The notes under the pieces: model-generated
Seen by the model: only the letters and a program-made list of their open reading frames with translations
Databases searched by the model: none
Told to the model about the DNA's origin: nothing
DNA from: Escherichia coli
GTDB lineage: Bacteria; Pseudomonadota; Gammaproteobacteria; Enterobacterales; Enterobacteriaceae
NCBI RefSeq assembly: GCF_001677475.2
Contig: NZ_CP015229.1
Direction: 5' to 3' (one strand)
Length of the DNA stretch: 64,000 nucleotides
Program-made: the position numbers and the translations under genes
In this document: positions 59,725 to 64,000 of the stretch, in pieces
How positions within the stretch are numbered: the stretch's first letter is position 1
Layout: every line of letters begins with the position of its first letter

Positions 59725-59872
59725 ACTTTTTTCCTGCTTCACGGTCAGAGTAAACAGCAAAACGCCGTAAGACCGGAAAGCAAAAGGTTTTAAAGTGATG
59801 AAAGGTCTATTATCATCGGCATATTACAGATGAGCCACGTACTGCTCGGGCCCGAAAAGGAATCAAATCACT

Positions 59873-60214
59873 ATGCGCTGTAAAACGCTGACTGCTGCAG
59901 CAGCAGTACTATTGATGTTGACCGCAGGCTGTTCCACTCTGGAGCGAGTGGTTTACCGTCCTGACATCAACCAGGGGAACTATCTGACCGCTAACGACGT
60001 ATCCAAAATACGTGTTGGCATGACGCAACAACAAGTTGCGTACGCATTGGGTACACCGCTGATGTCCGATCCATTTGGTACGAATACCTGGTTCTATGTC
60101 TTCCGCCAGCAACCAGGTCATGAAGGTGTAACGCAGCAAACGCTGACGCTGACCTTTAACAGTAGCGGTGTGTTGACCAATATTGATAACAAACCTGCGC
60201 TGAGTGGTAACTAA
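59873..60214 (+). CDS. bamE: outer membrane protein assembly factor BamE (SmpA)
   Basis: 113 aa; lipobox LTAGCS. Confidence 0.95.
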
Positions 60215-60242
60215 TAATAATAAAGTTGCTCTCAAAGACGTT

Positions 60243-60272
60243 AAAAAAGGTGCTCAATGAGCACCTTTTTTC
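60243..60272. terminator. bidirectional terminator between bamE and ratB
   Basis: Hairpin AGGTGCTC-aatg-AGCACCT flanked by an A6 run upstream and a T6 run downstream. Confidence 0.7.
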
Positions 60273-60278
60273 TGTCTG

Positions 60279-60569
60279 TTATTTATTCGCTGATTTTTCT
60301 GCTCGTTGCCTGCGAAGCTCTTTCGGATCGGCAATGAGAGGACGATAAATCTCCACCCGATCGCCATCATGTACAATATCGCTGAGTTTTGCCGGACGGC
60401 TGTAAATGCCGACTTTGTTTTTAGTTAAATCGATATCGGTACGCAATTCCAGCAAGCCACTGGCGCGAATAGCTTCTTCAACCGTCGCGCCCTCCTGCAG
60501 CGTCACGCGCTGCAGATACTGCTTCTCAGGTAGCGCATAAGCCACCTCAACGGCAATTTTACCTGGCAC
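60279..60569 (-). CDS. ratB: UPF0125 protein RatB (YfjF)
   Basis: 96 aa from GTG at 60567-60569 ([20 protein letters not shown]); the ORF track gives a 124-aa upstream-extended form. Confidence 0.85.
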
Positions 60570-61035
60570 TGTAAACCTCTTTCGCACGAACCGTAAAAGC
60601 CTGGACCATATTAGCCGCCAGTTCTTTAAACACGCGGCCAAAGGCGAGTTCAATCAACTTATTGGTAAACTCAAAATCGAGATGAAACTCGATACGGCAC
60701 GCCTCCTGACTCAGCGGCGTAAACTTCCAGCCACCGATCAATTTCTTGAACGGCCCATCCACCAGATTCATAAGAATACTTTGGTTACTGGTTAACTGGT
60801 TGCGGGTAGTAAACGTTTTGCTGATCCCAGCCTTAGAGACATCTACCGCCGCAGTCATCTGCCCAGGAGTGGACTCCAGAATCCGACTTCCGGTACAACC
60901 CGGCAAAAACTGAGGATAAGACTGAACGTCATTCACTAACTGATACATTTGCTCCGCGCTGTAGGGTACCAGTGCGGTCCGGCTAATCTGAGGCATAACA
61001 ATTTCCATCAACAAAAATCCAACAAATAATATCAT
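60559..61035 (-). CDS. ratA: ribosome association toxin RatA (YfjG), SRPBCC/polyketide-cyclase fold
   Basis: 158-aa ORF; overlaps ratB by 11 nt; start could instead be the internal MPQIS Met. Confidence 0.88.
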
Positions 61036-61166
61036 TTATCCTGCTGTAAAAAAAACGCTATCCCGGCGCTGGGTAACATCGGGTTCATGCTAAGATAGAG
61101 CCTTGTCCCCCGCAGGATTGATATGGGGTGTTTTCGATTTCAGATTACCGATGATTCACGACGCTT

Positions 61167-61649
61167 ATGACGAAGAAAAAAGCACATAAACCTGGTTCAG
61201 CGACCATCGCGCTTAACAAGCGCGCCCGTCACGAATACTTTATCGAAGAAGAGTTCGAAGCGGGACTTGCCCTGCAAGGCTGGGAGGTTAAATCCCTGCG
61301 CGCAGGAAAAGCCAATATCAGCGACAGCTACGTCCTTCTGCGTGACGGAGAGGCATTTCTGTTTGGCGCTAACATCACGCCAATGGCTGTGGCCTCCACG
61401 CATGTGGTGTGCGATCCTACCCGTACCCGCAAGTTACTTCTCAACCAGCGCGAACTGGACTCATTGTACGGTCGCGTCAATCGAGAAGGCTATACCGTAG
61501 TGGCGCTCTCCCTGTACTGGAAAAATGCCTGGTGCAAAGTGAAAATCGGCGTCGCCAAAGGTAAGAAACAGCATGATAAACGTTCAGATATCAAAGAACG
61601 CGAATGGCAGGTGGATAAAGCGCGTATCATGAAAAACGCCCACCGTTAA
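61167..61649 (+). CDS. smpB: SsrA-binding protein SmpB
   Basis: 160 aa from [29 protein letters not shown]. Confidence 0.97.
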
Positions 61650-61819
61650 ACCTGCACTGCAATTATTGACCCGCTCCTCACCGCGCCTCCCTCTCCGGCG
61701 GCGCGAATGCACATCTTATTGGCTATCACATCCGACACAAATGTTGCCATCCCATTGCTTAATCGAATAAAAATCAGGCTACATGGGTGCTAAATCTTTA
61801 ACGATAACGCCATTGAGGC

Positions 61820-61850
61820 TGGTCATGGCACTCATGAATCTGGTATACTT
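61820..61850 (+). promoter_or_regulatory. candidate ssrA promoter (extended -10)
   Basis: TGgTATACT at 61841-61849, 7 to 14 nt upstream of the mature tmRNA 5' end; no good -35. Confidence 0.5.
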
Positions 61851-61863
61851 ACCGTTACACATT

Positions 61864-62226
61864 GGGGCTGATTCTGGATTCGACGGGATTTGCGAAACCC
61901 AAGGTGCATGCCGAGGGGCGGTTGGCCTCGTAAAAAGCCGCAAAAAATAGTCGCAAACGACGAAAACTACGCTTTAGCAGCTTAATAACCTGCTTAGAGC
62001 CCTCTCTCCCTAGCCTCCGCTCTTAGGACGGGGATCAAGAGAGGTCAAACCCAAAAGAGATCGCGTGGAAGCCCTGCCTGGGGTTGAAGCGTTAAAACTT
62101 AATCAGGCTAGTTTGTTAGTGGCGTGTCCGTCCGCAGCTGGCAAGCGAATGTAAAGACTGACTAAGCATGTAGTACCGAGGATGTAGGAATTTCGGACGC
62201 GGGTTCAACTCCCGCCAGCTCCACCA
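61864..62226 (+). ncRNA. ssrA: tmRNA (SsrA), 363 nt, ending CCA
   Basis: 5' GGGGCUGAUUCUGGAUUCGACGGG, tag-coding region ...GCAAACGACGAAAACUACGCUUUAGCAGCUUAA, 3' GGGUUCAACUCCCGCCAGCUCCACCA. Confidence 0.97.
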
Positions 62227-62344
62227 CTTTTGATAGGACTGCAACCGGACAGCGGCAATAAAAACAGCCACTTACGGACACTGACCAGACAGTAAGCGGA
62301 CTTAAAAAAGACAAAAATATACACGCAAAATGCACGTGCATTTC

Positions 62345-62384
62345 AAAAAAGCCTCTGATTGTGAAGTCAGAGGCTTTTCTATTT
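62345..62384 (-). terminator. rho-independent terminator downstream of the phage tfa gene, in the ssrA-prophage junction
   Basis: Hairpin GCCTCTGA-cttcacaa-TCAGAGGC followed by TTTTTTG on the minus strand. Confidence 0.7.
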
Positions 62385-62424
62385 GTAACTAAGAGTAACA
62401 ATTCAACATGACGCAACCTACCAA

Positions 62425-62997
62425 TTACGTAACGTCAAACGCTCTGATTGAACGCAAATCATCCAGATTATTCAGTTGTTCCTTCATCTCGCGCTGGCGT
62501 TCGTGGATTTTAAAGCCCTCCGCCACCATGGCCACCATCATGGCATCGTTCAGCGCAATAAGTTTCTCCCTGGTCAGTATGACGTTGTTATTATCCGCAT
62601 CAGTCCAGAAAAAACCATCCGGAAGCAGTCCGGCCTGCGCTGTTGCAACCACGGGCGCAAGGCGTGACTGCGAGGTTTTTCCGCCATCAAAACGACGGCC
62701 ATCAAACGTGAAAATAAACTCAACGTTTTCCTGACTGTCGCGCCATGCCTCAATTTCCCGCCTTTTGGCATCCTTTGCCGCTGCAATAAGTTCCGGCGTG
62801 ACGGTGAACGGGGCGATTTCGCCCCATTTCCCGCTTTGCAGCTCCTGCCAGACATGCTGGCCTGTCGGGGCCATATCATCCTGTATGGCGGTATACAGGA
62901 CGAACTCCGTTTCACCTTCAAATAACACCTCGCAGTCAACCGCACCATTTTCAAGATAATGCGCGTTTCTGATGCCTTTCACCGCTCTGATTTTCAT
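62425..62997 (-). CDS. tfa: phage tail fibre assembly protein (Tfa-like chaperone)
   Basis: 190-aa ORF starting MKIRAVKGIRNAHYLENGAVDC, resembling lambdoid/K-12 cryptic-prophage Tfa N-termini; AAGGAA RBS; lies 14 nt downstream of the stf stop. Confidence 0.8.
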   Translation of the reverse strand: MKIRAVKGIRNAHYLENGAVDCEVLFEGETEFVLYTAIQDDMAPTGQHVWQELQSGKWGEIAPFTVTPELIAAAKDAKRREIEAWRDSQENVEFIFTFDGRRFDGGKTSQSRLAPVVATAQAGLLPDGFFWTDADNNNVILTREKLIALNDAMMVAMVAEGFKIHERQREMKEQLNNLDDLRSIRAFDVT

Positions 62998-63011
62998 GTC
63001 TTATTTCCTTA

Positions 63012-64000
63012 TTACTCAATGCGTACAAAAAGACCGATATAGCCACGCGTTGTATCGTGACTAATGCGGGTCCCCGAAAGCGCCGTGTAACGACCGGGGA
63101 AGTTGTATTCACCAGCACCGCCAATCACAACCTGCGGTGAGGATGCGTATGTCCCTGTATCGCTAACCCGTGCACTCATAGCCAGAGGGCCAAGACGGGA
63201 ACCCGGCACAATATCACCGAGCCCCAGAGACGCATCTGCACCAAAACTCTCCCCCTGATATGCCGCCATAATCGGCACACCAACGGCCGGGTATTTATAA
63301 TATGAGCCTGAGCCCGCCATCCTGGACAGCAGGTACGCCAGTGAATCTCCGTCGTATACAACTACCCGCGATGACATGTTCCAGCTGTTATCGCTGTCGT
63401 TGTACCGGTACTGCATATAGTGAATACAGTGTTCACCCTGATAATACTGGTTGTAGCACATCAGGGTTTTAAATTTGCGGACTGTGTCGGATTCACTGTT
63501 GGCGTACGGTGACCACATCACATCAATAATGCCGTTAAATTGCGTGGTACCGGTAAGCAGTTGCGAGGAGTCTGTAATACTGACCGCATACCGCCCCGGC
63601 GTGACTTTCTTCAACCACTCAACGAAATCAGACAGCCCCTCAAACGCCAGAGCGTCAGTGCTGGTGAATGCCTGTCCAAACCCATACATCCCGGACAGGG
63701 CCAGCCTGCCCGGTGTGCGGTCACGGATATCACTCTGGGGTTCCATCGTCGCAGCCGCGTTCAGCTCAAGCTCCGTGCGCATGGCTTCAGCCGTGTCATG
63801 CGCCAGTAATGCGCGGCCCTTCTCTGACAGCAGAGACAGTGAGGCATTCCCGTCTGTATTGAAGTACAGAAGATTATCTGCCCGTTGCGTCAGTGCGCTG
63901 ATTGCCGTTAAGACGTCATTAAGCGGTTGTTTGCCTGCCAGCGCGTTTGTGATTGTCGTCGCAAAGTTCGGGTCATTGCCCAGCGCCGCTGCCAGCTCGT
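63012..64000 (-). CDS. stf: phage side tail fibre protein (Stf-like), C-terminal ~329 codons; 5' end beyond window
   Basis: Minus-strand frame open from the window edge (hand translation 63783-63998 has no stop); contains the motif ALAGKQPLNDVLTAISALTQRADNLLYFNTDGNASLSLLSEKGRALLA, similar to the conserved shaft segment of lambda/Rac/e14 Stf; followed by tfa. Confidence 0.8.
   Translation of the reverse strand, partial: ELAAALGNDPNFATTITNALAGKQPLNDVLTAISALTQRADNLLYFNTDGNASLSLLSEKGRALLAHDTAEAMRTELELNAAATMEPQSDIRDRTPGRLALSGMYGFGQAFTSTDALAFEGLSDFVEWLKKVTPGRYAVSITDSSQLLTGTTQFNGIIDVMWSPYANSESDTVRKFKTLMCYNQYYQGEHCIHYMQYRYNDSDNSWNMSSRVVVYDGDSLAYLLSRMAGSGSYYKYPAVGVPIMAAYQGESFGADASLGLGDIVPGSRLGPLAMSARVSDTGTYASSPQVVIGGAGEYNFPGRYTALSGTRISHDTTRGYIGLFVRIE

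What the first reader, a model, noticed from the sequence alone, without database searches (positions are those of the whole stretch)
63012..64000. Stf-Tfa receptor-binding cassette: conserved shaft motif with a C-terminal domain I cannot place
The Stf fragment carries the conserved shaft motif (ALAGKQPLNDVLTAISALTQRADNLLYFNTDGNASLSLLSEKGRALLA) shared by lambdoid side tail fibres, but the ~250 C-terminal residues (Tyr/Gly/Ser-rich, ending ...TRGYIGLFVRIE) and the cognate Tfa (MKIRAVKGIRNAHYLEN...) do not match the lambda or K-12 Rac/e14/Qin versions that I can recall. Tail-fibre tips and their chaperones are the classic host-range determinants and are frequently exchanged as cassettes.
Basis: partly seen in the sequence, partly recalled or inferred. 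Interest (0 to 1): 0.35.

Follow-up and report, generated by a model that had tools for sequence, protein, structure and literature searches.

The report
Prophage tail-fibre tip with DUF4376 chaperone
The right end of an E. coli-type prophage inserted in the tmRNA gene encodes a side tail fibre with an uncharacterised receptor-binding tip, followed by a helper protein of the DUF4376 class rather than a lambda-type Tfa; this module is common, already annotated and freely exchanged, and its receptor is unknown.

Summary
The minus strand of 63012-64000 encodes the last 328 residues of a side tail fibre. All three quoted peptides are exact. The "shaft motif" is homologous to the start of lambda orf-314 (46% identity, E 3e-11).

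The last ~250 residues match no Pfam, NCBIfam or PDB sequence. The best deposited phage relatives are 30-34% identical. The tip is not an orphan: it belongs to PHROG 2636, a family of 111 clusters restricted to Enterobacterales prophage fibres. It has two modules: a "knob" (A) and a distal "head" (B).

One correction. The downstream gene (62425-62997) is not a Tfa. It is a DUF4376 protein (PF14301, PHROG 1141), whereas lambda Tfa and Mu U are PF02413. It shows no profile similarity to those, but it is homologous (hhalign 95%, E 3e-8) to Alteromonas phage V22 gp27, an experimentally proven tail-fibre chaperone.

Both window proteins are 100% identical to RefSeq proteins of E. coli MFDS1019527. 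The same cassette sits at six or more chromosomal sites in other strains. There is no invertase and no second chaperone copy: only 198 bp and a terminator separate the cassette from ssrA.

Verdict: an ordinary, correctly spotted host-range cassette, a new member of known kinds, of low interest.

The parts
63012..64000 (-). 3' part of the side tail fibre gene (stf). It encodes the last 328 residues, and the ORF continues beyond the window end.
   Evidence: Translation. The fragment is 100% identical to the C-terminal 328 aa of the 696-aa 'prophage tail fiber N-terminal domain-containing protein' WP_332832577.1 of E. coli MFDS1019527. That full-length protein has phage_tail_N at 1-134 and a Phage_fiber_2 repeat at 280-319.
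63771..63998 (-). Conserved shaft/junction segment (fragment residues 1-76), containing the ALAGKQP...GRALLA motif.
   Evidence: Lambda orf-314 N-terminus: 46% identity, E 3e-11. Several PHROG tail-fibre families match residues 1-86. This segment is 100% conserved in four of the eight E. coli loci compared, although their tips differ in three of these.
63354..63770 (-). Tip module A, the 'knob' (fragment residues 77-215). It starts with the LELNAAATMEPQSDIRDRTPGRLALSGMYGFG neck motif.
   Evidence: AF2 model residues 36-138 have pLDDT 70-89 and form one helix plus six strands. The module occurs alone (profile positions 1-150) in other fibres, including P2-type fibres that carry a Peptidase_S74 domain further downstream. 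It is tandemly duplicated in P0015-P0017.
63015..63353 (-). Tip module B, the distal 'head' (fragment residues 216-328), ending in IGLFVRIE. This is the presumed receptor-binding and chaperone-docking end.
   Evidence: AF2 model residues 160-252 have pLDDT 65-82 and are all-beta. The module occurs alone (profile positions 140-253) at the C-terminus of other fibres. Its variants track the chaperone allele. The C-terminal LF[VQM]R[IA]x motif is shared by all 13 fibres paired with DUF4376 proteins.
62998..63011 (-). 14-nt intergenic spacer with a Shine-Dalgarno-like AAGGA ahead of the chaperone ATG.
   Evidence: Read directly from the sequence...ATT GAG TAA TAA GGAAATAAGAC ATG AAA... The function is inferred.
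62425..62997 (-). DUF4376-type tail-fibre chaperone gene (190 aa). The N-domain is ~1-66 and the DUF4376 domain is 73-178.
   Evidence: PF14301, E 3e-19. phrog_1141, E 5.6e-83. 100% identical to WP_000701866.1. hhalign against V22 gp27: probability 95%, E 3.3e-8. AF2 pLDDT 93.8.
62347..62378 (.). GC-rich hairpin flanked by A and T runs. It is a likely bidirectional intrinsic terminator that closes the stf-chaperone operon.
   Evidence: Found on the + strand. On the - strand the same stem (GCCTCTGA...TCAGAGGC) is followed by TTTTTTGAAA (read).
62204..62226 (+). Last 23 nt of ssrA (TTCAACTCCCGCCAGCTCCACCA). They are carried on the prophage arm and form the att-core / prophage right boundary.
   Evidence: tmRNA at 61864-62226. 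Identity with the MFDS1019527 prophage arm begins exactly here.

Best explanation
This is the host-range module at the right (attR-proximal) end of a prophage integrated into the 3' end of ssrA.

The stf gene encodes a side tail fibre that is presumably trimeric. In the identical full-length copy its layout is: a phage_tail_N anchor, a repeat shaft, the widely shared ALAGKQP...GRALLA junction, and then a two-module tip. Module A is a 'knob' and module B is a ~110-residue distal 'head' ending in IGLFVRIE.

The gene 14 nt downstream encodes a DUF4376-class intermolecular chaperone. It is not a lambda-type Tfa.

Inferred mechanism, by homology to Alteromonas phage V22 gp27/A5 gp9 and the Campylobacter CJIE1 protein: the chaperone binds the C-terminal head of the nascent fibre and helps it to fold, starting from the C-terminus. 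It may stay on the tip as a transient cap. The mature head then binds an unknown cell-surface receptor and adds to the host range set by the central J fibre.

The conserved junction motifs let recombination swap knob, head and chaperone between phages.

Shown here: gene identity, domain families, homology to a proven chaperone, modularity, and spread among prophages. Inferred: trimer formation, chaperone dependence, which module binds the receptor, and the receptor itself.
For: - ORFs and quoted peptides are exact.
- The fibre is identified by PHROG 2636 (E 3e-75) and shaft families, by lambda orf-314 junction homology, and by full-length architecture in the identical RefSeq copy.
- The downstream protein is PF14301 DUF4376 and PHROG 1141. 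It aligns to V22 gp27 with hhalign probability 95%, E 3.3e-8, over 153 columns.
- V22 gp27 is essential for producing functional gp26 fibre (PMC7289586; PMC10579305). A DUF4376 protein is also required for the Campylobacter H-fibre to work (PMC7882524).
- In all 13 loci examined the DUF4376 gene directly follows a tail-fibre gene.
- The modularity of A and B is shown by the exhaustive profile search, by Pfam architectures and by the mosaic identity table.
- The chaperone's DUF4376-domain allele tracks head module B, not knob A.
- The position at the prophage edge next to ssrA is shown.
- A terminator follows the pair.
Against: - No experiment exists for this fibre, this chaperone or any close relative. 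The best deposited phage tip is 34% identical.
- The covariation of allele and head rests on 8 E. coli loci and could reflect physical linkage alone.
- The stf gene is truncated by the window end, so its intactness here is assumed from the identical copy elsewhere.
- The prophage may be defective.
Confidence: 0.8

Rival explanations
1. The downstream protein is a genuine, merely divergent member of the lambda/Mu Tfa (Caudo_TAP) family, and works exactly as TfaMu does.
For: - Same position and similar size (190 aa against 194 aa for lambda Tfa).
- Same two-part logic as Tfa: a less conserved N-domain and a conserved C-domain (North et al. 2019 as summarised in PMC7882524).
- That paper states that TfaMu carries DUF4376.
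- The N-domain (residues 6-90) is 31% identical to Aeromonas phage PX29 p317, whose C-end weakly resembles Caudo_TAP.
Against: - Pfam places lambda Tfa, Mu U and phiP27 L55 in PF02413 with no PF14301 hit. It places the window protein and its relatives in PF14301 with no PF02413 hit.
- hhalign of the two groups gives a probability of 7%, and the only aligned stretch is the N-domain contributed by PX29 p317.
- phiP27 carries both kinds, each behind its own fibre.
Confidence: 0.07
2. The 190-aa protein is not only a folding helper. It is a structural or adhesin component that stays on the fibre tip and makes or modulates receptor contact, like T2/T6 gp38, or acts as a transient 'cap' that masks the tip.
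For: - Several databases label relatives 'tail fiber protein'.
- A5 gp9 stays bound to its fibre and is dispensable for folding, which led to the cap proposal (PMC10579305).
- TfaMu also stays bound (same paper).
- The DUF4376-domain allele changes together with the head module.
Against: - The database labels are automatic.
- V22 gp27 binds only weakly after maturation and is required for folding.
- No virion proteomics or binding data exist for any enterobacterial member.
- The predicted fold is a helical body with short hairpins, with no obvious exposed variable loops such as the gp38 glycine-rich motifs.
Confidence: 0.1
3. The cassette is an inert remnant of a decayed prophage and does nothing today.
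For: - Only the last 1.8 kb of the element is visible in the window.
- In the related ssrA locus L002 an IS66 element sits directly upstream of stf.
- Many prophages of E. coli are defective (general knowledge).
Against: - Both reading frames are open to their ends. They are 100% identical in protein sequence to copies in a prophage with a full J-lom-stf tail module.
- The chaperone's 90%-identity cluster has 616 member sequences, at 95% identity to the window protein.
- Amino-acid conservation across divergent alleles indicates purifying selection.
Confidence: 0.1

Closest known systems
Alteromonas phage V22 gp26/gp27 and A5 gp8/gp9 (tail fibre plus DUF4376 chaperone; PMC7289586, PMC10579305)
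   Same: The chaperone is homologous: hhalign probability 95%, E 3.3e-8 over 153 columns, with the same PF14301 domain. The gene order is the same, fibre then chaperone. The fibre logic is the same: neck motif (GL..AAT.D....G....GAFG.G), then knob(s), then distal head. Knob duplication occurs in some members (paper).
   Different: The fibre tips are not detectably homologous (hhalign probability 0.6%). V22 gp26 lacks the LFVRIE end. The hosts are marine Alteromonas, and the phages are a lytic myovirus and a schitovirus rather than an enterobacterial prophage. The chaperone N-domains differ.
Phage phiP27 L56/L57, Rac-SA53 tail3/tail4 and SerU-LTIIb stf/stf2 (E. coli temperate phages)
   Same: These are the closest deposited phage versions of the whole pair. 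The tip is 29-34% identical over its full length and the chaperone 52-54%. They sit in the same position at the attR end and share the LFVRI(A/E) terminus.
   Different: They are only distant alleles. None has a known receptor or a tested chaperone. phiP27 is a myovirus-type phage with a second fibre and a Caudo_TAP Tfa upstream.
Lambda Stf (orf-401/orf-314) plus Tfa (orf-194)
   Same: Position after J and lom, the phage_tail_N anchor class of fibre, the ALAGKQP... junction motif (46% identity), and a small helper gene directly downstream.
   Different: The lambda tip after the junction is unrelated. Lambda Tfa is PF02413, not PF14301, and no profile similarity was found.
ORF-191 of the P-Eib prophages of E. 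coli ECOR-9 (AF151091 and others)
   Same: It is a DUF4376 protein 41-42% identical to the window protein. It lies directly after an ORF-401-like Stf and lom. That fibre also ends in ..LTLFQRIV.
   Different: Its fibre has a collagen-repeat shaft. Its tip is barely alignable with this one (hhalign probability 0.7%). ORF-191 was never assigned a function in that record.
Intramolecular chaperone domains (Peptidase_S74) of T5 pb1 and the K1F endosialidase
   Same: These are proposed structural analogues of DUF4376 chaperones (PMC10579305). Knob module A of this family also occurs in fibres that carry a Peptidase_S74 domain further downstream in place of module B. This fits the two being alternative solutions for the same job.

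Membership tests
Lambdoid side tail fibre (Stf; phage_tail_N-anchored prophage fibre) | N-terminal phage_tail_N (PF08400) anchor domain | not testable with these tools
   The N-terminal part lies beyond the window end. The copy in MFDS1019527 is 100% identical over the visible 328 aa and has PF08400 at 1-134, E 1.2e-40.
Lambdoid side tail fibre (Stf; phage_tail_N-anchored prophage fibre) | Conserved ALAGKQP...LPYF...GR.LLA junction shared with lambda orf-314 and other fibres | tested here: met
   46% identity over 54 aa to lambda orf-314 residues 1-54, E 3e-11. PHROG shaft families match at E down to 4e-21.
Lambdoid side tail fibre (Stf; phage_tail_N-anchored prophage fibre) | Location at the attR-proximal end of the prophage, after J and lom, followed by a small helper gene | tested here: met
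   In the window the pair abuts the ssrA att site. In the identical copy the order is J, lom, stf, DUF4376.
Tip family PHROG 2636 | Full-length match of the C-terminal ~250 residues to the family profile | tested here: met
   Residues 75-328 match profile positions 317-568 of 568, E 3e-75. 111 representative clusters were found with the family profile.
Tfa / Caudo_TAP (PF02413) tail fibre assembly proteins of lambda, Mu, P2 | Match to the PF02413 C-terminal domain | tested here: not met
   No PF02413 hit at E <= 0.1. Lambda Tfa (2.8e-43), Mu U (6.7e-37) and phiP27 L55 (6.5e-22) all hit it. hhalign between the two groups gives probability 7%.
Tfa / Caudo_TAP (PF02413) tail fibre assembly proteins of lambda, Mu, P2 | Fold similarity to TfaMu (PDB 5YVQ) | tested here: not met
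   [not shown]
DUF4376 (PF14301) tail-fibre chaperones (V22 gp27 type) | PF14301 domain above the gathering score | tested here: met
   69.9 bits against a cut-off of 25, E 3e-19, residues 73-178.
DUF4376 (PF14301) tail-fibre chaperones (V22 gp27 type) | Homology to an experimentally validated member | tested here: met
   hhalign of alignment A4 against V22 gp27: probability 95.1%, E 3.3e-8, 153 aligned columns.
DUF4376 (PF14301) tail-fibre chaperones (V22 gp27 type) | Gene immediately downstream of, and co-oriented with, a tail-fibre gene | tested here: met
   There is a 14-nt gap in the window. The same arrangement holds in 12 other loci and in V22.
DUF4376 (PF14301) tail-fibre chaperones (V22 gp27 type) | Helical body with a protruding beta-hairpin, resembling T5/K1F intramolecular chaperones | tested here: inconclusive
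   [not shown]
DUF4376 (PF14301) tail-fibre chaperones (V22 gp27 type) | Required for production of functional fibre | not testable with these tools
   This needs co-expression experiments. It has been shown only for V22 gp27 and the Campylobacter CJIE1 protein.
Invertible tail-fibre segments (Mu G, P1 C, e14 P) | Inverted second tip/helper copy plus an adjacent Gin/Cin/Pin invertase and crossover sites | tested here: not met
   Only 198 bp lie between the helper gene and ssrA. The only inverted repeats are 15-16 nt chance-size pairs. No invertase is annotated beside the cassette in 8 related loci. Compare Mu.

The most novel reading that the evidence does not exclude
The tip's distal ~110-residue head (module B, ending LFVRIE) could be a receptor-binding fold with no solved structural relative, recognising an as yet unidentified Enterobacterales surface receptor. 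In this chaperone class the conserved DUF4376 domain itself, and not only the N-terminal domain as in the Tfa paradigm, could determine which head it folds. This is suggested by the two DUF4376-domain alleles that track head variants, and by the LF[VQM]R[IA] C-terminal strand shared by all partnered fibres.
Probability: 0.2. Interest if true: 0.45.

Novelty: new member of a known kind. Interest (0 to 1): 0.2.

Why it matters
Side-tail-fibre tips and their chaperones set or widen phage host range, and they are the parts that are swapped when engineering phages, pyocins and similar particles. This work clarifies two points. A large share of E. coli and Salmonella prophage side fibres use a DUF4376 chaperone rather than Tfa. 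Their tip also splits into an exchangeable knob and head with conserved joints. Both points are useful for annotation and for choosing chimera breakpoints. The observation does not open a new question. The pair is already catalogued (PHROGs, Pfam, RefSeq), the chaperone class has been shown experimentally elsewhere, and the receptor remains unknown.

Tried and rejected
1. Near-identity to a characterised phage: tblastn of the tip and the helper against 50,697 phage records gave at most 34% and 54% identity.
2. Sequence and profile searches of the PDB for both proteins found nothing meaningful.
4. The DUF4376 = Tfa equivalence stated in PMC7882524 was tested by Pfam and hhalign and not supported.
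5. The Aeromonas phage PX29 distal fibre tip was tested as a remote relative of head module B, because PX29 p317 shares the chaperone N-domain. The result was not significant: BLASTP E 0.45, hhalign probability 1%.
6. V22 gp26 was tested as a homologue of the tip. Only the short neck motif looks alike, and the match is not significant.
7. Remote homology of module B to the PhiR5_2 and P-EibA fibre ends was suggestive for PhiR5_2 (probability 50%, E 1.6e-4) and not significant for P-EibA.
8. The search for an invertase, crossover sites or an alternative tfa copy found none.
9. A literature search for receptor data on related phages (the PhiR5/PhiR12 names, lambdoid Stf chaperones) found nothing relevant.

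Full report
**What is in the sequence**

The window ends in the chromosomal block recN-bamE-yfjF-ratA-smpB. This is followed by an intact tmRNA gene (ssrA, 61864-62226, tag ANDENYALAA). To the right of ssrA the minus strand carries two genes.
- A 190-codon ORF at 62425-62997 begins MKIRAVKGIRNAHYLEN.
- Fourteen nucleotides upstream, an ORF ends at 63012 and stays open to the window edge: 328 codons, ending TRGYIGLFVRIE.

The spacer reads TAA TAA GGAAATAAGAC ATG, which gives a Shine-Dalgarno-like AAGGA ahead of the second gene.

A GC-rich hairpin at 62347-62378 is flanked by A and T runs. It lies 47 nt after the stop of the second gene and can act as a terminator on either strand (the minus-strand reading comes).

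**Context**

This DNA is the right arm of a prophage. The same arm is 99.7% identical in E. coli MFDS1019527, and the identity starts exactly at the last 23 nt of ssrA (TTCAACTCCCGCCAGCTCCACCA). The phage therefore supplies the 3' end of the tmRNA gene, as expected for an ssrA-integrating element.

In that strain the two proteins are 100% identical to the window's. They follow tape-measure, L, J and lom genes. Three other E. coli strains carry alleles of the pair at ssrA, at 66-100% coverage.

The chromosomal backbone is 95-99% identical to all 5,426 complete E. coli genomes, 99.0% at best.

**The fibre**

Fragment residues 1-86 match several tail-fibre PHROGs (E down to 4e-21). Residues 16-69 align with the first 54 residues of lambda orf-314 at 46% identity (E 3e-11).

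Beyond it nothing resembles lambda. The last ~250 residues hit no Pfam or NCBIfam model and no PDB sequence, either singly or as a profile.

The tip is nevertheless not an orphan.
- It matches the C-terminal half of PHROG 2636 (E 3e-75).
- It has 84 homologous clusters in a word-indexed search, nearly all from E. coli and Salmonella. Many of these are mis-named "shikimate transporter".
- A profile search of 1.84 billion representative proteins found 111 clusters.
- The members I looked up come only from Enterobacterales: Escherichia, Salmonella, Citrobacter, Cronobacter, Yersinia and Plesiomonas.
- Among deposited phages the nearest tips are 29-34% identical: Rac-SA53, phiP27 L56, SerU-LTIIb and the Vequintavirinae phage Av-05. 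None has a known receptor.

**Two modules in the tip**

The AlphaFold2 model has moderate confidence (pLDDT 67.8). It shows a helix-plus-sheet domain at tip residues 36-138, a disordered linker at 139-159, and an all-beta domain at 160-252.

Three independent observations agree with this split.
- The profile search finds positions 1-150 alone in some proteins and 140-253 alone at the C-terminus of others.
- Module A occurs internally in P2-type tail-collar fibres that carry other C-terminal parts, including a Peptidase_S74 intramolecular chaperone domain (P0268, P0273).
- Module A is tandemly duplicated in P0015-P0017.

**The helper is not Tfa**

The 190-aa protein is a DUF4376 protein (PF14301, 69.9 bits, residues 73-178) and belongs to PHROG 1141. 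Lambda Tfa, Mu U and phiP27 L55 are all PF02413 and show no PF14301 signal. The window protein's relatives (phiP27 L57, P-Eib ORF-191, Av-05 gp77, PhiR5_2) are all PF14301. Profile-profile comparison of the two groups gives a probability of 7%.

phiP27 carries both kinds, each behind its own fibre. The statement in PMC7882524 that TfaMu contains DUF4376 is not borne out here.

By contrast, the DUF4376 alignment matches Alteromonas phage V22 gp27 with 95% probability (E 3.3e-8, 153 columns).
- gp27 is essential for making functional gp26 fibre (PMC7289586).
- Its relative A5 gp9 stays on the fibre and was proposed to act as a transient cap resembling the T5/K1F intramolecular chaperones (PMC10579305).
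- A DUF4376 protein is also needed for the Campylobacter CJIE1 H-fibre.

**Cassette behaviour**

Across eight E. coli loci the pair sits in six different chromosomal contexts:
- ssrA;
- prfC;
- a tRNA-Ser gene near hyaA;
- potB;
- ompW;
- next to a manganese catalase gene (L011).

It lies either behind lom (lambda-like tails) or behind a Caudo_TAP or late-control gene (phiP27/P2-like tails), on shafts of 663 to 1,044 residues.

A segment-wise identity table shows mosaicism.
- The junction segment is 100% conserved in four of these loci, and in three of them the tip differs.
- Knob A and head B vary independently. In L013, A is 96% and B 65% identical to the window.
- The chaperone's DUF4376 domain comes in two alleles. 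One is 92-100% identical to the window and is paired with B at 83% or more. The other is 52-54% identical and is paired with B at 65-74%.

This fits co-adaptation of head and chaperone, but with eight loci and tight physical linkage it is only suggestive.

All 13 fibres paired with DUF4376 proteins in my set end in LF[VQM]R[IA]x. These include PhiR5_2, whose fibre end aligns weakly to module B (probability 50%, E 1.6e-4), and P-EibA (not significant).

No invertible segment exists. Only 198 bp and a terminator separate the helper from ssrA. The only inverted repeats are chance-size 15-16-mers. No invertase is annotated next to the cassette in any related locus.

Neither protein is nearly identical to a well-characterised fibre with a known receptor.

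**Verdict**

The specific label "Tfa" is wrong, because the helper belongs to the DUF4376 chaperone class.

The module is common and already annotated: the chaperone's closest 90% cluster has 616 members, and 640 of 5,426 complete E. coli genomes match part of the query. It fits a mechanism shown in other phages.

What remains open is the receptor and the structure of the head domain. I rate it a new member of known kinds, with low interest.

Noticed in passing
window 62204-62424; L001 11990-12225: The prophage arm, including a copy of the last 23 nt of ssrA, is 99.7% identical in E. coli MFDS1019527. There it lies next to a dinI-like gene and prfC, not next to ssrA. It is not clear how an ssrA-type att arm came to sit at the prfC locus (secondary site, tandem or remnant prophage, or rearrangement).
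   Followed up: partly
window 62347-62378: A 14-bp-stem hairpin flanked by A and T runs could terminate transcription from both directions: the stf-chaperone operon on the minus strand, and read-through from ssrA on the plus strand.
   Followed up: no
proteins P0007, P0009, P0014 and others: Dozens of NCBI entries homologous to this tail-fibre tip are named 'shikimate transporter, partial'. This looks like a propagated annotation error.
   Followed up: no
proteins P0015, P0016, P0017 (alignment columns 338-460): These family members carry a second, divergent copy of knob module A inserted after the AATMEPQSDIRDRTPGRLA motif. This parallels the knob duplication described for Alteromonas phage A5.
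   Followed up: partly
window 62800-62982 (chaperone residues 6-66); L007 2989-3414: The chaperone's N-terminal part (residues 6-90, mostly the N-domain) is 31% identical (pairwise E 5e-14) to p317 of the T4-like Aeromonas phage PX29. p317 is a 141-aa protein directly after the distal tail-fibre gene, and its C-end weakly resembles Caudo_TAP. This hints that fibre-docking N-domains are shuffled between the two chaperone classes. The PX29 fibre tip itself was not significantly similar to module B.
   Followed up: partly
[not shown]
   Followed up: no
window 59800-62230: The smpB-ssrA backbone is at most 99.0% identical to any of 5,426 complete E. coli genomes, and 95-99% to almost all of them. 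The source may be a somewhat divergent Escherichia lineage.
   Followed up: no
L002 5921-7801: In the related ssrA prophage of E. coli OkiPb01695 an IS66-family element (ISEc49) sits directly upstream of stf, where lom and J would be expected. That copy of the prophage is therefore disrupted.
   Followed up: no
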